DNA from: Sulfolobus acidocaldarius DSM 639
GTDB lineage: Archaea; Thermoproteota; Thermoprotei_A; Sulfolobales; Sulfolobaceae
DNA length: 32,000 nt
Direction of reading: 5' to 3'
Assembly (NCBI RefSeq): GCF_000012285.1
Contig: NC_007181.1
Location: forward strand, 1,230,001-1,262,000
This document shows positions 1,560 through 14,757 of the stretch, one piece after another (the stretch's first letter is position 1; the number at the start of each line of letters is the position of its first letter). The notes below the pieces were generated by a model. It saw nothing but the letters and a program-made list of their open reading frames with translations. It did no database searches and was not told the DNA's origin. Made by a program: the position numbers and the translations under genes.

Positions 1560-1708
1560 TATGGATGATATTATGTTTACTTTATCAAGAAGAGTCAAGG
1601 TGGTAAGACGAAGGAGACTTACGTTGGTGCTTTAGTTGACCTAGTAAAGACTTACCTGAAATTGTAAGATAGAAGTGGGGTATTAGGGTGTATCCCCCTA
1701 ACCTTTCA
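1560..1708 (+). pseudogene. decayed Int(N)-like fragment of an SSV-type integrase, lying outside the left att copy
   Basis: 1569-1664 reads YYVYFIKKSQGGKTKETYVGALVDLVKTYLKL, then TAA (1665-1667), then a 1-nt deletion relative to the right-hand Int(N). It is ~70% nucleotide-similar by eye to 10263-10393 and resembles the SSV1 integrase N-terminus (RYYVYK...YVGPLADVVESYLKMK) as I recall it. Confidence 0.7.
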
Positions 1709-2518
1709 AAGGTAGCCGGGCAGGGACTCGAACCCTGGTCCCAGGGGCCAAAGCCCTGGTTAGGGGAGGAATCCCCTAAAACCCCTCTTTCAAATGATGA
1801 AGAGAGTAAGGGATTTGCCCTAAACTCCCTTACTTCTAGGGAGGGCAAAAATGGTCTCACGGAAAAGGAATTAATTGAATTTTATGAATATTGTTTGAAA
1901 ATGGCCAGTGAGGAAACTTGCAGGCAGTATATCAATTATCTGAAGAAGCCCCCTAGTAATGCTAAGAACTCTATCCTAGCCTGGAAGAAGTTCTACAAGT
2001 GGAAAGGGGATCTTGAGGCATGGAAAAAGCTGAAAACGAAAAAGTCTGGTGTTGATCTTAAGGTTCCAGGAGCTGACGAGATAGGGAGGTGGTTGGAGGC
2101 TGTTAGAGGTATTGAGGTAGAGCTAGTCTTCAAGCTCCTCCTTGAGAGCGGTATAAGGCTTAGGGAGGCTGTAAAGGTTCTCAATGAGTATGACGAGAAG
2201 AACAACGTGAAAGAGGACGGCTTCTACGTATACACGCTCAACTGGACTAGAGGGCCAAAGAAAGTGTTCTATGTCTTTCACATTTCGTCTATAGCTAAGA
2301 CTGATATAACGTACAACTACGCGAAGAATTTATTGCATGAGAAAGGGATAGCGCCGAAATATGTACGCAAATTCGTGACTACTAAACTCGCGGAGCTCGG
2401 AGTTAGTGCCGAGGTAATCGATTTCATGCAGGGCAGGACGCCTTCTTCGATTCTTGGCAAGCATTATCTCAACTTATTAGCCCTCGCCAAGAAAGACTAC
2501 AGACGCTACGCCGAGTGA
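1688..2518 (+). CDS. SSV-type tyrosine integrase, C-terminal catalytic part (Int(C))
   Basis: The ORF-track protein starts inside the att repeat (VAGQGLEPWSQGPKPW is translated tRNA sequence). It contains ESGIRLREAV, YVFHIS, KYVRKFVTTKLAELGV, DFMQGR and LGKHY, collinear with the SSV1 integrase catalytic region (GVRLSE ... RKFVASKMAEL ... FIQGR ... QHY). Confidence 0.85.
   Translation: MYPPNLSKVAGQGLEPWSQGPKPWLGEESPKTPLSNDEESKGFALNSLTSREGKNGLTEKELIEFYEYCLKMASEETCRQYINYLKKPPSNAKNSILAWKKFYKWKGDLEAWKKLKTKKSGVDLKVPGADEIGRWLEAVRGIEVELVFKLLLESGIRLREAVKVLNEYDEKNNVKEDGFYVYTLNWTRGPKKVFYVFHISSIAKTDITYNYAKNLLHEKGIAPKYVRKFVTTKLAELGVSAEVIDFMQGRTPSSILGKHYLNLLALAKKDYRRYAE
1709..1759. repeat. attL: 51-bp direct repeat, a partial 3' copy of tRNA-Gln
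   Basis: aaggtagccgggcagggactcgaaccctggtcccaggggccaaagccctgg is identical to 10394-10444. Flanking bases differ on both sides. Confidence 0.95.
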
Positions 2519-4835: not shown

Positions 4836-6089
4836 CAGACCGTGTCCGGGACTGCTTATCTATATGCAAACTCGCAACTTCTCAATTCTCAATCTTTCGC
4901 TTATACTTTCTATCCAAGGGGAGGTAGCTATACTAACCTGCTCTCAGGGTCTGTAGTAGTACCATAGAGCGTAACATACCTCGTCTCAGGTCAATATACC
5001 ATATCTACGTATGCTGAAACGAGCTCTTCACATTCGAGACAGGGAAACTATACAATCGTCGTGACAGACCATTACCCCTCGTCACCATACATAACTACTC
5101 AAGGCAACGTGTACAACTGGTATGAATATGATGTATATCCAGCAGTTATCGTAATCGTGAACAATGGCACTAATCCAGTGACGTTATTTGCGAATAAACT
5201 GTACACGTCAAGGCAAATCACAACTACGATATCGTTCATGGACATCTGGAGCTCAAAGTCGTATCAAAACGCGACTAGTATTATCACGTATGATACATTG
5301 AATGTAGGAAACTACTCAGTAAGTAGAATATGGCACGCTGGGAATATAGTTCTTACAGCTCAGCAATATCTGCAACAATCAGGGAATACGTACAACTACT
5401 ACTTAAGTTTCAACTTGATAAAGGATGTAACGGAGCCACCGACATGGATATATCAAAAAATGCCGTACAACCCTTACGCTACGCAGGGCTGGTACTATCT
5501 TGAGCAGAACGCGACCTTGGCAAATGCTTTGATGCGGTATGTCAATCAAACGATGAACAGCACTGACGTACAGTACAAGTACTTCGAGTACTTCACACTA
5601 GCGAGCGAGTTCGCCAGCTATACTTTCAATACGACGTATAGCAAGTTTGCAAATACAATCGAGCTCGAGAGCTTCTACGACCCGTGGGTCTTAATGAACG
5701 TGCAAATACTCGACATAAGTAAACTACCAAACGCGATACAGTACTTCCCAGGCCAGCTTATGTTCTTCAATGTGTCTAGGATCCCAGCGGTATATAACGC
5801 GACTAACCTCGTGAACATCTCTGGAAACTACGAGATCTATTGGGTGGACCTGTACAATTCGTGGAACGGCCCGCCCTTCGGGAACGAGTACCAGTGGATT
5901 AACTTGGCGACGGGACAGAAGTATAACTTATACTTGTTTAACGAGACTGGGATACCGTACCCTGGCGAGATGCTTACTTTCTATAACGCTGACTTTATGC
6001 CGAGCATATACTATGCGATATTTATTTACCCTGAAGGGACAGTAGTAAAAATTGAAGCGGTTTGGAACGGGACAGCTTGGATAAGTTAG
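4836..6089 (+). pseudogene. truncated and frameshifted gene for an Asn/Tyr/Thr-rich, heavily N-glycosylatable extracellular-type protein
   Basis: ORF 5061-6089 (GTG start, no signal peptide) has 12 N-x-S/T sequons. The same kind of sequence continues upstream in-frame to 4968, and in another frame across 4836-4964 (QTVSGTAYLYANSQLLNSQSFAYTFYPRGGSYTNLLSGSVVVP*). It has no start codon and abuts the IS end. Confidence 0.55.
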
Positions 6090-6348: not shown

Positions 6349-6489
6349 TTATTTCCCACAAGGAGGTCTATGGTCGGGATTGAGCTCATAATAAGCCTCA
6401 ATAAGCATTTTCCTAAACTCCTCTAGGTCTTCGTCAGTCTCTAACTCTAGGTACCCATAACCTTTCTTATCCTTCTCAACTATTCTCAT
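6349..6489 (-). CDS. unannotated small ORF (46 aa), acidic, hypothetical
   Basis: ATG at 6489-6487 reads MRIVEKDKKGYGYLELETDEDLEEFRKMLIEAYYELNPDHRPPCGK*. A TTTTTATT box lies ~22-29 nt upstream on the minus strand (plus 6511-6520), consistent with a leaderless transcript. It is below the ORF-track size cutoff. Confidence 0.3.
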   Translation of the reverse strand: MRIVEKDKKGYGYLELETDEDLEEFRKMLIEAYYELNPDHRPPCGK

Positions 6490-6720: not shown

Positions 6721-8265
6721 CTAGAAAAGAAGTAGAAAGATACTTACGGGAATATATACTACATTATTCTCTTTATCCAGCTTGTCCTTTGTCAGCACTA
6801 TAACTGTGTCGTTGATACTGTATTTCCCAGTCTTAGGATTACTACTATACTTTGACTCTATGTAGAACTTATACTTCGAATTGTTCTTAGTTATACACAG
6901 AATAAAATCAATCTCGCCCTGATCATCCTTTCTATACATGAGTACTTTGTCATATTCCACATGGGTGACATGTTCAAACAGATATTGAGATTGGAGCAAG
7001 TGGGAGGCTACTACGCTTTCTACCAACAACCCTTTAAATGTGTTGTCTTTAAGCATTTTTCGTGACTCTTCAAAGGGGTCATCAGAGTTATGGAAATAAC
7101 TTCTAATCGAGTGGTATAGGAAGGGGTCAAGCACATAGTTTTTAACCATGTCCTCATAGTTTGGCTTACACTCCTCACTTTCTCTATATCCAAAAAAGAA
7201 GGAGTATGTAGTTATTAGGTAGTTAAAATAGTCCTTCCAGTTAATCTTCCTCTTGGGTTTCCCGCTCTCGTCCTCACCTATGACCTCTAAATTAATGGGA
7301 TTCATTAGGTTAGAAACTGTCATTGGACCAGTTAAATATTCTAGTAACCTCTCTAAGTTAGTAGGGTCTAGCCCAGCGACTTTAGAGTCCTTTATTAATA
7401 AATCTGCAATATTGTTGTAAAAGTTCTTCGATATTCTTCCCTCCTTAAGGTATTCGTCAATAGCCTTAGGATAACCTCCGTGCAATAAATAGTTTTCAAA
7501 AGATTCTCGAAGAAACACAAAGTAAGAGTCATAGAATTTTCTTAAAATATCGTCAATGGATCCACTGCGTAGAGAATTAAGGATTCCGAATCTATAGCCA
7601 GGTCTTCTAAACTTTTTGTTAGCAATAAATTCATTAATATCTTTACGTATTGCCTTAACTACTTCTGAGAAACGTAAAGGTCTCATTACTAGGTTACCGC
7701 CTAAGTTTATCATCTTAGCCATCTCACCTTGTCTATCGCTGAGCTTACTTGCTGCTTCAGCTAAGTCCATCGAATGACTCCCAGTTGCAATAATTCTCAC
7801 CTTATAGTTTTTTATTAAACCCTCGTCATAGGCGTTCTTCAACGCTTGAGCCCAACCTCTATACATTGAAACTTCATCTAGAAAAACGTATTTCTCTTCA
7901 TTATTACTCTCTGCTATTGCCTCCAATAAGTTGATTAGGCTAATGTTGTCAACTTTAAACTGCTCGTAATCTAGTGGAATGTAAAAGATATTTGATGGAT
8001 TTATTTGTCTCTCTTTAATGAGGTGACGTATTATAAGTTTAATGAGAGTCGTCTTACCAACTCTGCGGGGTCCTCTTACAGTTACAATGCCATAAGAGCC
8101 TGAGACAAAATTATTAGTTAGATGAAAAAATAGCCTTGGTCGTTCTTTTAGTTCTGAGTTATCGAACTCCCCTAGTTCATTATCTACCTTATCCCAGTCC
8201 TTATTTTCCCACCATCTATTAAAGTTCTTTAAGAGCTCACGTAGATTGTTGGTACTTAGTTTCAT
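6721..8265 (-). CDS. AAA-type ATPase (COG1373 / AAA_14 + DUF4143-like) with a C-terminal PD-(D/E)xK nuclease-like motif
   Basis: 514 aa. Walker A is GPRRVGKTT (nt 8050-8073) and Walker B is YVFLDEV. The C-terminus GEIDFILCITKNNSKYKFYIESK gives a D...ExK arrangement (about D453, E470, K472). The start overlaps the upstream AbrB gene by 29 nt. Confidence 0.8.
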   Translation of the reverse strand: MKLSTNNLRELLKNFNRWWENKDWDKVDNELGEFDNSELKERPRLFFHLTNNFVSGSYGIVTVRGPRRVGKTTLIKLIIRHLIKERQINPSNIFYIPLDYEQFKVDNISLINLLEAIAESNNEEKYVFLDEVSMYRGWAQALKNAYDEGLIKNYKVRIIATGSHSMDLAEAASKLSDRQGEMAKMINLGGNLVMRPLRFSEVVKAIRKDINEFIANKKFRRPGYRFGILNSLRSGSIDDILRKFYDSYFVFLRESFENYLLHGGYPKAIDEYLKEGRISKNFYNNIADLLIKDSKVAGLDPTNLERLLEYLTGPMTVSNLMNPINLEVIGEDESGKPKRKINWKDYFNYLITTYSFFFGYRESEECKPNYEDMVKNYVLDPFLYHSIRSYFHNSDDPFEESRKMLKDNTFKGLLVESVVASHLLQSQYLFEHVTHVEYDKVLMYRKDDQGEIDFILCITKNNSKYKFYIESKYSSNPKTGKYSINDTVIVLTKDKLDKENNVVYIPVSIFLLLF

Positions 8266-8593
8266 CTTTACTTAACCTCCTCAAATATCTTGCAAAGTCA
8301 AATTCAAGCCTACCCAGCTCCTTTGCAAGTCGCTCGTATTTTTCCTCCAACTCTTTAACCCTCTCTTCTAATTCGCTGTTTTGAGGTAGGCCGTCCTTAG
8401 TGATTACAATCTTTTTGTCACTCGTCAAGATTAGATAAATTTCCTCACCAGGCTTGAGGTCAAGTTCTCTAATGAACGAGCTAGGAATTTTTATCCTCCC
8501 TCTGACGTCTATAGTCATTTTCTTAGTCTCTTTAATTTCCACAATAATGTTATTTTGCGTAAAGGCTAATATTATTTTCCCACTTCTTCCCAC
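8237..8593 (-). CDS. AbrB/SpoVT-family DNA-binding protein with a C-terminal coiled coil (antitoxin-like)
   Basis: MTIDVRGRIKIPSSFIRELDLKPGEEIYLILTSDKKIVITKDG is a typical swapped-hairpin AbrB/MazE/SpoVT domain. The C-terminus ELEERVKELEEKYERLAKELGRLE is coiled-coil-like. The likely true start is the internal ATG at 8518, with ATTATT ~25-30 nt upstream; the ORF-track start 8593 adds 25 non-conserved residues. Confidence 0.75.
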   Translation of the reverse strand: MGRSGKIILAFTQNNIIVEIKETKKMTIDVRGRIKIPSSFIRELDLKPGEEIYLILTSDKKIVITKDGLPQNSELEERVKELEEKYERLAKELGRLEFDFARYLRRLSKDETKYQQST

Positions 8594-8642
8594 TATTGTA
8601 AACTAGTTAGATAGTTCACTCAATTTTTACCTCACTAATGAG

Positions 8643-8704
8643 TTGACCTCCTCCAACTTTAAAGGACGAGACTTACTTATTTTGAGTTAACTCCCCAGTT
8701 TACT
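8643..8704. repeat. left repeat module flanking ORF 8806-9951
   Basis: ttgacctcctcc-N6-aaaggacgagactt (8643-8674) has an inverted copy at 9983-10015. ttgagttaactccccagtttact (8682-8704) has a direct copy at 10038-10060 (20/23) and contains the 10-bp palindrome GAGTTAACTC. taaaggacgaga is repeated again at 8731-8742. Confidence 0.8.
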
Positions 8705-8805
8705 GAGAAAAAATTCAACTATGGTCATTCTAAAGGACGAGAGCCTTACCTTTAGGTCAGTCATCTCAGTATATTTTATTAATTCAGTTTTGTAATTATA
8801 TATAT

Positions 8806-10202: not shown

Positions 10203-10400
10203 TATACGGGTTATAGGACTTTCGTTGCCGGGCAGTATAAGATTCGTCAGAGAGGGAATAAGTATTATGTTTACTCCATAGAGAAGGGTCAAGACGGTAA
10301 GGTAAAGGAACATTATATTGATCCTTTAGCTGACGTGATTGAAACATATGTTAAATTGAAAGATAGTAATGTGGGTATCAGGAGTACCCCAATAAGGTAG
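10203..10400 (+). pseudogene. Int(N): N-terminal part of the partitioned SSV-type integrase, decayed
   Basis: Reads YTGYRTFVAGQYKIRQRGNKYYVYSIEKGQDGKVKEHYIDPLADVIETYVKLKDSNVGIRSTPIR* and is collinear with the SSV1 integrase N-terminus. The frame opens directly after TAA 10200-10202 with no start codon. It is 1 nt out of register with the frame that Int(C) uses through the att sequence. Confidence 0.75.
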
Positions 10401-10444
10401 CCGGGCAGGGACTCGAACCCTGGTCCCAGGGGCCAAAGCCCTGG
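10394..10444. repeat. attR: 51-bp direct repeat inside the intact tRNA-Gln
   Basis: Identical to 1709-1759. It covers tRNA positions ~26 to the 3' end plus 4 nt downstream. Confidence 0.95.
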
Positions 10445-10470
10445 ATCCTTGACCGCTAGACGACCCGGCT
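10398..10470 (-). tRNA. tRNA-Gln (anticodon UUG)
   Basis: The minus strand reads AGCCGGGTCGTCTAGCGGTCAAGGATCCAGGGCTTTGGCCCCTGGGACCAGGGTTCGAGTCCCTGCCCGGCTA. Acceptor stem is AGCCGGG/CCCGGCT, anticodon arm is CAGGG-CTTTGGC-CCCTG, T arm is CAGGG-TTCGAGT-CCCTG. Length 73 nt, no encoded CCA. Confidence 0.9.

Positions 10471-10953: not shown

Positions 10954-11050
<97 letters not shown>

Positions 11051-14439: not shown

Positions 14440-14757
<318 letters not shown>

What the first reader, a model, noticed from the sequence alone, without database searches (positions are those of the whole stretch)
6721..8593. AbrB/SpoVT gene overlapping an AAA-ATPase with a PD-(D/E)xK-like tail, carried on the integrated element: candidate toxin-antitoxin or defence module
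Seen in sequence: a small AbrB/SpoVT swapped-hairpin protein with a coiled-coil tail overlaps by 29 nt the start of a 514-aa protein. That protein has Walker A GPRRVGKTT, Walker B VFLDEV and a C-terminal EIDF...IESK motif, the D...ExK layout of restriction-endonuclease-fold nucleases. Established knowledge: AbrB/MazE-fold proteins are the standard antitoxin/repressor partners of type II TA and abortive-infection loci. COG1373-type (AAA_14 + DUF4143) ATPases are multi-copy in Sulfolobales and have no assigned function. Inference: this could be an antitoxin-like regulator coupled to an NTP-driven nuclease effector, sitting in horizontally acquired DNA next to other orphan genes. As far as I know this pairing has not been characterised as a system.
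Basis: partly seen in the sequence, partly recalled or inferred. Interest (0 to 1): 0.72.

Follow-up and report, generated by a model that had tools for sequence, protein, structure and literature searches.

The report
DNA-binding zipper protein plus ATPase-nuclease operon
On a small element integrated into a Sulfolobus acidocaldarius tRNA gene sits a two-gene operon, a small DNA-binding protein with a leucine-zipper tail and a large ATP-driven nuclease from a very common but untested "candidate antiviral" family; the small partner proves to be a one-off domain swap of a partner found upstream of every close relative examined, which makes the pair look like a toxin-antitoxin-style regulated nuclease.

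Summary
A 514-aa AAA_14+DUF4143 ATPase (6721-8265, minus strand) is overlapped by 29 nt by an AbrB/MazE-fold gene (8237-8593). Both lie inside an 8.7-kb SSV-type integrated element in tRNA-Gln of Sulfolobus acidocaldarius.

The ATPase family is already catalogued as PADLOC candidate defence gene PDC-S01. DUF4143 has been listed as a PD-(D/E)xK nuclease family since 2012. "AbrB + COG1373" is not a general pairing.

The conserved pairing is different. In 63 of 63 loci whose ATPase is at least 45% identical and that have enough upstream DNA, the upstream overlapping gene encodes a ribbon-helix-helix (RHH) domain plus a roughly 40-aa leucine-zipper tail. In 81 of 81 loci at or below 30% identity it is absent. 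The S. acidocaldarius protein keeps that tail (50 bits, E 4e-15) but has AbrB in place of RHH. No other such chimera exists among 1.84 billion representative proteins.

Swapping the DNA-binding head on a conserved tail is typical of type II antitoxins. My best reading (about 0.4) is an autoregulated, partner-restrained ATPase-nuclease serving element addiction or exclusion of invaders. The main rival (about 0.3) is that the partner is only a repressor and the zipper only oligomerises it. No toxicity, binding or defence activity has been shown.

The parts
6721..8265 (-). 514-aa AAA+ ATPase fused to a PD-(D/E)xK nuclease domain (AAA_14 + DUF4143; PADLOC PDC-S01). Identical to S. acidocaldarius AAY80771.1 / Q4J8W0.
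   Evidence: AF2 model has pLDDT 92.6. The ATPase part resembles SSO1545, ORC/Cdc6, RFC and Avs4.
7660..8091 (-). AAA_14 P-loop core (aa 59-202). Walker A is GPRRVGKTT (K71); Walker B is FLDE (D130, E131). GSHS (162-165) and R178 are also invariant.
6850..7044 (-). PD-(D/E)xK core (aa 408-472). A helix carries E416, followed by three strands carrying D453, E470 and K472.
   Evidence: Invariance; secondary structure; sequence. Family listed as PD-(D/E)xK in PMC3424549. Foldseek result is weak.
8237..8593 (-). Partner gene: AbrB/MazE swapped-hairpin head plus leucine-zipper tail. Annotated as 118 aa from GTG 8593 (AAY80772.1). A 93-aa form from ATG 8518 is possible.
8393..8518 (-). AbrB/MazE DNA-binding domain of the partner.
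   Evidence: PF04014 9.5e-7 and TIGR01439 8.1e-7.
8261..8374 (-). Leucine-zipper tail ELEERVKELEEKYERLAKELGRLEFDFARYLRRLSKDE. It is homologous to the tail of the RHH partners in the ATPase's close clade. Its 3' end overlaps the ATPase start.
   Evidence: A tail HMM built without the window scores 50 bits, E 3.7e-15; the next best window segment has E = 3. BLASTP gives 41% identity over 51 aa. Heptad analysis; translation.
8275..8280 (-). GGAGGT Shine-Dalgarno-like motif 9 nt upstream of the ATPase ATG, inside the partner's coding sequence.
   Evidence: Read.
8594..8805 (.). Divergent intergenic region and likely promoter/operator. It holds a perfect 12-bp direct repeat TAAAGGACGAGA at 8660-8671 and 8731-8742, and a TAAAAATT TATA-like box at 8622-8629.
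   Evidence: Repeat. The TATA-like box was read by eye. No function has been tested.
1709..1759 (.). Left att repeat (51 nt), a partial copy of tRNA-Gln.
10394..10444 (.). Right att repeat (51 nt) inside the intact tRNA-Gln (10396-10470, minus strand).
1688..2518 (+). C-terminal part of the split SSV-type integrase.
   Evidence: Phage_integr_3, 7.5e-42.
10242..10400 (+). N-terminal part of the split SSV-type integrase.
   Evidence: SSV1_ORF_D-335, 9.7e-20; also seen.

Best explanation
This is the S. acidocaldarius version of a two-gene operon conserved in hyperthermophilic Thermoproteota. The upstream gene encodes a small dimeric DNA-binding protein with a leucine-zipper tail. The downstream, translationally overlapping gene encodes an AAA+ ATPase of the ORC/Cdc6/STAND-like kind fused to a PD-(D/E)xK nuclease.

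In every relative examined the DNA-binding head is a ribbon-helix-helix. Here it has been replaced by an AbrB/MazE swapped-hairpin, and the zipper has been kept.

Inferred mechanism:
1. The partner binds an operator in 8594-8805 and represses the operon.
2. Through the conserved exposed face of its zipper (E-Q...E-x-G-R) it also holds the ATPase-nuclease inactive.
3. When the partner is lost, titrated or degraded, for example after loss of the element or on invasion, the ATPase binds ATP, assembles and cuts DNA.
4. The result is element addiction and/or exclusion of competing viruses and plasmids.

Shown: gene architecture, domain identities, conservation of catalytic residues, strict partner-ATPase co-occurrence, the head swap, and the mobile-element context.

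Inferred: repression, partner-ATPase contact, toxicity, and the trigger.
For: Architecture. The overlap is 29 nt, with an SD-like motif ahead of the ATPase start.

Co-occurrence. 63/63 loci with an ATPase at least 45% identical and at least 250 nt of upstream DNA carry an RHH+tail ORF immediately upstream on the same strand, overlapping by 4-37 nt or lying within about 25 nt. The count is 0/81 at 30% identity or below, and 6/11 in the 31-35% class have an RHH head. The partners are RHH_7/CopG-like (30.5-34.9 bits against a cutoff of 27).

Tail homology. A profile built without the window gives 50 bits, E 3.7e-15. The RHH profile finds nothing in the window.

Uniqueness. The AbrB-tail chimera is unique among 1.84 billion representatives and in the word-indexed search.

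Tail surface. Two of the three invariant tail positions (E21, heptad position g; R24, position c) lie outside the a/d core, and Q17 (position c) and G23 (position b) are nearly invariant. Core 'a' positions vary more. This suggests a binding surface beyond self-association.

Established knowledge. Type II antitoxins are modular, with a DNA-binding head (RHH, AbrB, HTH or Phd) and a C-terminal toxin-binding segment, and heads are exchanged between families.

Intact catalytic residues. Walker A/B and the E416/D453/E470/K472 residues are conserved.

Context. Relatives sit in mobile or defence-like regions:
- S. tokodaii, in a conjugative-plasmid-like region.
- T. pendens, between SF1 and Schlafen-like helicases, with a MazE gene next door.
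- Loci with Fic, NucS, RHH/PIN or a DUF1156 methylase.

The pair is intact and invariant in the 9 S. acidocaldarius loci compared, while the neighbouring orf342 varies and the 381-aa ORF carries a 1-nt indel that splits it in one strain.
Against: - No experiment shows toxicity, neutralisation, DNA binding or defence.
- The 'toxin' is 514 aa, far larger than classical type II toxins.
- Most of the family (30% identity or below) has no such partner, so the nuclease is evidently tolerated without one.
- The tail is a textbook GCN4-like zipper. It could simply oligomerise the repressor.
- Homologous zippers occur in small virus- or plasmid-like ORFs with no ATPase nearby.
- The one PDC-S01 gene tested in E. 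coli did not protect against T7, T5 or T4.
- S. acidocaldarius strains are so alike that the invariance of the pair says little about selection.
- No complex prediction could be run.
Confidence: 0.4

Rival explanations
1. Regulator only. The partner is just an autorepressor of the operon. Its zipper serves only to dimerise or tetramerise the DNA-binding heads, as the C-terminal domain of B. subtilis AbrB does. The ATPase-nuclease is a self-contained effector, as in the partner-less PDC-S01 genes, and is controlled only at the level of transcription.
For: - The tail has perfect a/d heptads and matches GCN4 zippers.
- Homologous zippers occur on TM-anchored or bare small proteins in virus/plasmid-like contigs without any AAA_14 gene, as expected of a generic association module.
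- Most of the family works without a partner.
- RHH and AbrB are both obligate-dimer DNA binders, so either head fits on a zipper.
Against: - The link between this particular tail and one ATPase clade held in every locus examined (63/63 against 0/81).
- The tail was retained through a head swap.
- Exposed b/c/g positions are invariant while core 'a' positions vary. That is more than a simple zipper needs.
- These points remain compatible with co-inheritance.
Confidence: 0.3
2. Element replication or maintenance module. Like CopG(ORF56)-RepA of pRN-type Sulfolobus plasmids, a small RHH/AbrB copy-control repressor overlaps the gene of a large initiator-like NTPase that acts at the element's origin, using its winged-helix and nuclease domains.
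For: - The ATPase fold is closest to ORC/Cdc6, RFC and Hda.
- RHH partners also hit NikA-like mobilisation RHH proteins.
- The locus lies on an integrase-bearing element, and in S. tokodaii on a conjugative-plasmid-like region.
Against: - The family is a very abundant chromosomal gene across bacteria and archaea (9,986 archaeal and 29,494 bacterial instances), mostly not on replicons of its own.
- No primase, helicase or Rep motifs are detected.
- PHROGs shows no viral relatives of the ATPase.
- PD-(D/E)xK domains are not known replication-initiator nickases in archaeal plasmids (my knowledge).
Confidence: 0.08
3. Inert cargo. The pair is a decaying remnant on a defective, immobilised element and has no current function.
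For: - The integrase is split by integration.
- A neighbouring gene varies in length, and one is broken in a single strain (orf342 56-375 aa; orf381 split in L005).
- The element has few recognisable genes.
Against: - Both ORFs are full length with every catalytic and motif residue intact.
- They are identical in all strains sampled.
- Splitting of an SSV-type integrase is the normal integrated state (established knowledge), not decay.
Confidence: 0.07

Closest known systems
PADLOC PDC-S01 (AAA_14 + DUF4143 / COG1373 'predicted AAA+ ATPase'), a single-gene phage-defence candidate
   Same: Same two Pfam domains above threshold, and the best PADLOC hit (4.4e-26). It is an ATPase fused to a PD-(D/E)xK nuclease, abundant in archaea.
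   Different: PDC-S01 is defined as a single gene. This clade has an obligatory upstream DNA-binding zipper partner (63/63). Antiviral activity of PDC-S01 is unproven, and one representative failed against T7, T5 and T4.
Type II toxin-antitoxin operons with RHH or AbrB/MazE antitoxins (e.g. MazEF, VapBC, ParDE, CcdAB)
   Same: - The upstream small gene overlaps the downstream effector.
- The small protein has an N-terminal DNA-binding head and a C-terminal extension.
- Heads are exchanged (RHH to AbrB) on a constant tail.
- The locus sits on mobile DNA.
   Different: The effector is a 514-aa ATPase-nuclease, not a small toxin of about 100 aa. The tail is a long canonical zipper rather than a disordered toxin-wrapping segment. 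Neither toxicity nor neutralisation has been shown.
STAND/AAA+ NTPase-nuclease immune proteins (Avs4 and relatives; also OLD/Gabija-type ATPase-nucleases)
   Same: A P-loop NTPase of the ORC/STAND-like kind is coupled to a restriction-endonuclease-fold effector. Avs4 is among the structural matches.
   Different: There is no large sensor (TPR-like) domain. The nuclease is C-terminal. The protein is much smaller. Foldseek similarity is confined to the NTPase module.
SSO1545-type archaeal ATPases (PF01637, PDB 2fna)
   Same: Best structural match to the ATPase module (E 5e-7), with a weak Pfam ATPase_2 hit. It is also a multi-copy Sulfolobales family of unknown function.
   Different: Only 16% identity. 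SSO1545 (352 residues in the 2fna chain) is too short to include a DUF4143-type C-terminal domain.
CopG(ORF56)-RepA operon of pRN1-type Sulfolobus plasmids
   Same: A small RHH repressor gene overlaps a large NTPase gene on a crenarchaeal mobile element.
   Different: RepA is a primase-polymerase/SF3 helicase. No such domains are present here, and the ATPase family is mostly chromosomal and stand-alone.

Membership tests
AAA_14-DUF4143 / COG1373 / PADLOC PDC-S01 | AAA_14 P-loop domain above Pfam gathering score | tested here: met
   90.5 bits against 27. Walker A and B residues invariant.
AAA_14-DUF4143 / COG1373 / PADLOC PDC-S01 | C-terminal DUF4143 domain above gathering score | tested here: met
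   52.1 bits against 28.1, aa 300-474.
AAA_14-DUF4143 / COG1373 / PADLOC PDC-S01 | Match to PADLOC PDC-S01 profiles | tested here: met
   PDLC04787 4.4e-26, covering aa 57-477; six further PDC-S01 profiles also hit.
AAA_14-DUF4143 / COG1373 / PADLOC PDC-S01 | Single-gene system | tested here: not met
   A conserved overlapping partner gene is present in 63/63 close-clade loci and in the window.
AAA_14-DUF4143 / COG1373 / PADLOC PDC-S01 | Antiviral activity | not testable with these tools
   The literature records no validation. One representative was negative in E. coli.
PD-(D/E)xK nuclease superfamily | Conserved acidic/Lys signature (E...D...(D/E)xK) on a helix-strand-strand-strand core | tested here: met
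   E416, D453 and E470 are invariant and K472 is at least 90% conserved. They sit on H408-423, E450-460 and E463-471 of the model. DUF4143 is listed as a PD-(D/E)xK family in PMC3424549.
PD-(D/E)xK nuclease superfamily | Significant structural similarity to solved restriction-endonuclease-fold proteins | tested here: inconclusive
PD-(D/E)xK nuclease superfamily | Metal-dependent nuclease activity | not testable with these tools
   Needs biochemistry.
AbrB/MazE/SpoVT swapped-hairpin DNA-binding domain | Profile match above the curated threshold | tested here: met
   PF04014 29.1 against 24.7; TIGR01439 28.7 against 28.3. The margins are small.
Type II toxin-antitoxin system | Adjacent co-oriented overlapping genes with the small DNA-binding protein first | tested here: met
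   29-nt overlap here; a 4-37 nt overlap or a gap of at most about 25 nt in relatives.
Type II toxin-antitoxin system | Modular antitoxin: exchangeable DNA-binding head plus conserved C-terminal partner-binding segment | tested here: inconclusive
   The head swap with a conserved tail is shown. That the tail binds the ATPase is not shown.
Type II toxin-antitoxin system | Toxicity of the downstream protein and its neutralisation by the upstream protein | not testable with these tools
   Needs expression experiments.
SSV-type integrated element | Direct att repeats within a tRNA gene and an integrase gene split into N and C parts at the two ends | tested here: met

The most novel reading that the evidence does not exclude
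The zipper tail is the specific handle by which the partner clamps the ATPase-nuclease. That would make this clade the first regulated, two-component form of PDC-S01, described as the fourth most common defence system or candidate across prokaryotes. The small virus- and plasmid-borne proteins that carry the same zipper (bare, or anchored by a TM helix) would then be decoys. They would either mimic the partner to silence the nuclease (anti-defence) or sequester the partner and so act as the trigger. If so, S. acidocaldarius, a genetically tractable archaeon, would offer a direct experimental entry into the function of this family.
Probability: 0.15. Interest if true: 0.8.

Novelty: new variant of a known kind. 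Interest (0 to 1): 0.55.

Why it matters
AAA_14-DUF4143 (PDC-S01) proteins are among the most abundant uncharacterised genes counted as candidate immunity in bacteria and archaea. No function has been shown, and the only test found in the literature was negative.

A clade in which the gene is always coupled to a small DNA-binding partner of antitoxin-like architecture implies that the ATPase-nuclease is dangerous enough to need dedicated control. It also supplies an obvious experimental handle: delete or deplete the partner, mutate K71 or D453/E470/K472, or express the tail alone.

The S. acidocaldarius head swap is a natural experiment. It shows that the tail, not the DNA-binding specificity, is the constrained part. 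The locus sits in a model archaeon with good genetics and on an element whose stability can be measured.

Tried and rejected
- AbrB as the general partner: rejected. An AbrB profile found hits within 2.5 kb in only 2 of 75 genome loci, neither in the upstream co-oriented position.
- Sequence search of the PDB with the ATPase: nothing meaningful.
- PHROGs: no viral family for the ATPase or the partner.
- Metagenome scan with the single protein: no relatives. It was repeated with the clade alignment.
- Word-indexed search with the 93-aa partner: only itself.
- Foldseek of the isolated nuclease domain: not significant.
- Literature look-ups by accession or locus name: no paper. Searches for the S. 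acidocaldarius element: nothing specific. The 'embedded defences' preprint does not name PDC-S01 in its main text.
- Strain comparison as a test of selection: uninformative, because the strains are nearly identical outside two hot spots.
- Start codon of the partner (GTG 8593 or ATG 8518): could not be settled from sequence. A TATA-like box fits the GTG; the domain boundary fits the ATG.
- A partner-ATPase complex could not be predicted.
Full report
**What is there**

The window is Sulfolobus acidocaldarius DNA. The 514-aa protein is identical to AAY80771.1/Q4J8W0, and the small protein to AAY80772.1, annotated as 'AbrB/MazE/SpoVT family'. The same arrangement is found in many sequenced strains.

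One search confirms the two minus-strand ORFs, 6721-8265 (514 aa) and 8237-8593 (118 aa from GTG), and their 29-nt overlap.

Pfam places the large protein in AAA_14 (1.1e-25) plus DUF4143 (8.1e-14). It places the small one in MazE_antitoxin/AbrB (9.5e-7, above threshold). NCBIfam TIGR01439 agrees. The AbrB domain starts at residue 26 of the annotated protein, so an ATG at 8518 (93 aa) is an alternative start.

A GGAGGT motif 9 nt before the ATPase ATG lies inside the partner's coding sequence. This fits co-transcription with separate translation initiation.

**The element**

A perfect 51-nt direct repeat (1709-1759 and 10394-10444) lies within tRNA-Gln. An SSV-type integrase is split into a C-part at the left end (Phage_integr_3, 7.5e-42) and an N-part at the right end (SSV1_ORF_D-335, 9.7e-20). 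This is the normal integrated state of such elements.

The 8.7-kb element otherwise carries orphan ORFs. A 46-aa ORF just downstream of the ATPase matches an archaeal-virus PHROG (1.3e-15). To the right of the element lie core genes: AlaRS, ribosomal proteins L10 and L1, and an Spt5/NusG homolog.

**What was already known about the ATPase**

- DUF4143/COG1373 is family 100 in the 2012 census of PD-(D/E)xK nucleases (PMC3424549).
- The protein's best PADLOC match is PDC-S01 (4.4e-26).
- A 2026 survey describes PDC-S01 as an ATPase fused to a PD-(D/E)xK domain. It ranks fourth in abundance among defence systems and candidates across prokaryotes, has 9,986 archaeal instances, and awaits validation (PMC12988326).
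- In the one test I found, a PDC-S01 gene gave no protection against T7, T5 or T4 in E. coli.

**Structure and catalytic residues**

In a 33-sequence alignment reaching 25% identity, K71 (Walker A), D130/E131 (Walker B), D380, E416, D453 and E470 are invariant, and K472 is nearly so.

The AlphaFold model is confident (pLDDT 92.6). Its NTPase module resembles the Sulfolobus ATPase SSO1545 (2fna), ORC/Cdc6, clamp-loader subunits and STAND proteins such as Avs4.

The C-terminal 143 residues, modelled alone (pLDDT 86.5), show the helix-then-three-strands core that carries E416, D453 and E470-x-K472. Foldseek against the PDB was not significant (best E 0.1). Its top hits were mostly restriction-endonuclease-fold enzymes. 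I count the fold test as inconclusive but consistent, and the motif test as met.

**The partner: the main new result**

I collected loci encoding relatives of the ATPase from species-representative genomes and from metagenomes. I then examined the DNA upstream of each.

| ATPase identity to the window protein | Loci with enough upstream DNA | Upstream partner found |
|---|---|---|
| 45% or more | 63 | RHH + tail in all 63 |
| 31-35% | 11 | RHH head in 6 |
| 30% or less | 81 | none |

(48 distinct partner sequences.)

An AbrB profile found an AbrB-like ORF within 2.5 kb in only 2 of 75 genome loci, neither in the upstream co-oriented position. The close relatives instead carry a same-strand gene of about 85-100 aa that overlaps the ATPase start by 4-37 nt or lies within about 25 nt of it.

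The N-terminal half of these partners is a CopG-like ribbon-helix-helix (RHH_7, 30.5-34.9 bits against a cutoff of 27). The C-terminal half is a helix with the motif LE-KYEQLA[KR]E[VL]GR[IV]E-DL.

S. tokodaii STK_13230 and the Thermofilum pendens homolog show the same arrangement.

The S. acidocaldarius protein has no RHH, but its tail is homologous to these tails.
- BLASTP gives 41% identity over 51 residues, confined to the tail.
- A tail profile built without the window scores 50 bits (E 3.7e-15) on this ORF. The next best of 410 six-frame segments has E = 3.
- The RHH profile finds nothing in the window.

An exhaustive HMMER search of 1.84 billion representative proteins with the 93-aa protein returned only itself, two unrelated AbrB-domain proteins and one tail match. 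The AbrB-zipper protein is therefore a lineage-specific chimera: the DNA-binding head was exchanged and the tail kept.

A plausible source exists. In T. pendens a separate MazE/AbrB gene lies directly upstream of the RHH-zipper gene.

**Nature of the tail**

It has uninterrupted a/d heptads over about five repeats and resembles GCN4 zippers.

The three invariant positions are one core Leu, plus E21 (heptad position g) and R24 (position c). Q17 (position c) and G23 (position b) are nearly invariant, while the core 'a' positions vary. Conservation of exposed positions suggests a binding surface beyond self-association. This is an inference.

Against a dedicated ATPase-binding role, the tail profile also retrieved small proteins (49-70 aa) that consist of the zipper alone or of a TM helix plus the zipper. 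These sit in virus- or plasmid-like contigs with a TFIIB-like gene or a protein-primed PolB and many small ORFs. No AAA_14 gene is nearby.

**Interpretation**

The architecture matches type II toxin-antitoxin operons in three respects. A small DNA-binding protein comes first. It overlaps a larger effector. Its DNA-binding head is exchangeable on a conserved C-terminal segment. The locus also lies on mobile or variable DNA.

I therefore favour, at about 0.4, an autorepressed module in which the partner also restrains the ATPase-nuclease through its zipper. The module would serve element addiction and/or exclusion of invaders.

The chief rival, at about 0.3, is that the partner is only a repressor whose zipper oligomerises it. 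The generic zipper character, the zipper's use elsewhere, and the many partner-less relatives all favour this reading. A CopG-Rep-like replication role and inert cargo are less likely (0.08 and 0.07).

Nothing here demonstrates toxicity, binding, nuclease activity or defence.

**Contexts of relatives (qualitative)**

- S. tokodaii: a conjugative-plasmid-like region with a DUF87/TrwB-like ATPase, ParA, PLD and Fic.
- T. pendens: between an SF1 helicase and a Schlafen-group helicase.
- A Desulfurococcales MAG: next to a DUF1156 methylase-like gene and a MazE gene.
- Another MAG: NucS, Fic, RHH/PIN and a second AAA_14 gene.

I did not test enrichment against a background.

**Upstream region in the window**

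The 212-bp divergent intergenic region holds a perfect 12-bp direct repeat, TAAAGGACGAGA, at 8660-8671 and 8731-8742. I read a TATA-like TAAAAATT about 33 nt upstream of the GTG by eye. These are candidate operator and promoter elements only.

**Verdict**

The ATPase-nuclease is a member of a known, catalogued but uncharacterised family, and its nuclease fold assignment is not new. What appears new is the obligatory RHH-zipper partner of a Thermoproteota clade and its unique AbrB-headed version in S. acidocaldarius. No paper in the searched library mentions it. I rate this as a new variant of a known kind, of moderate interest, and readily testable in a model archaeon.

Noticed in passing
window 5061-6089 (+), with flanks at about 5000-5250 and 5750-6000: The 342-aa N/Y/T-rich orphan ORF on the element is a hot spot of substitutions and indels among S. 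acidocaldarius strains. Called products range from 56 to 375 aa. Apart from a second hot spot outside the element at 14500-14593, the rest of the 12-kb region is nearly invariant.
   Followed up: partly
L172-L179 (proteins P0129-P0131, P0138-P0152): Small virus- or plasmid-like ORFs carry the same zipper motif (KEVGRIE-DL). Some are bare; others follow a TM helix. Their contigs have a TFIIB-like gene or a protein-primed PolB and no AAA_14 gene. They could be a generic zipper module, or mimics of the partner tail.
   Followed up: partly
L165 and L168 (upstream of the ATPase match, 125-nt gap): The same 60-aa MazE/AbrB-fold gene (PF04014, 5.9e-6), without a zipper tail, lies upstream of a 28%-identical AAA_14-DUF4143 gene in both loci. 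This may be an independent AbrB pairing in a distant subfamily.
   Followed up: partly
L157-L161 and L164 (about 80-95 nt upstream of the ATPase match): Another subfamily of distant ATPases (27-29% identity) has a conserved upstream gene, 64-67 aa in most of these loci. It has weak MarR/FeoC-like winged-helix matches (...REIAEEIDVLDDMLSALVE...EEWEKRI...). Different clades therefore seem to have recruited different small DNA-binding neighbours.
   Followed up: no
L180 7250-7495 (Thermofilum pendens): A separate 81-aa MazE/AbrB gene sits directly upstream of the RHH-zipper partner and ATPase. Such an arrangement could yield an AbrB-zipper fusion by deletion.
   Followed up: partly
window 8660-8671 and 8731-8742: A perfect 12-bp direct repeat, TAAAGGACGAGA, spaced 71 bp apart in the divergent intergenic region upstream of the partner gene. 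It is a candidate operator.
   Followed up: no
window 6349-6489 (-): A 46-aa ORF just downstream of the ATPase matches phrog_30262 (unknown function), E 1.3e-15. It is the element's clearest match to a PHROGs virus protein family among the ORFs scanned.
   Followed up: no
window 10958-11050 (-): ARAGORN reports a 93-nt tRNA with an undetermined anticodon just outside the element. It may be an intron-containing archaeal tRNA.
   Followed up: no
window 14500-14593: A second cluster of differences between strains, outside the element, in or near the gene whose product hits the acidic ribosomal stalk protein family (Ribosomal_60s).
   Followed up: no
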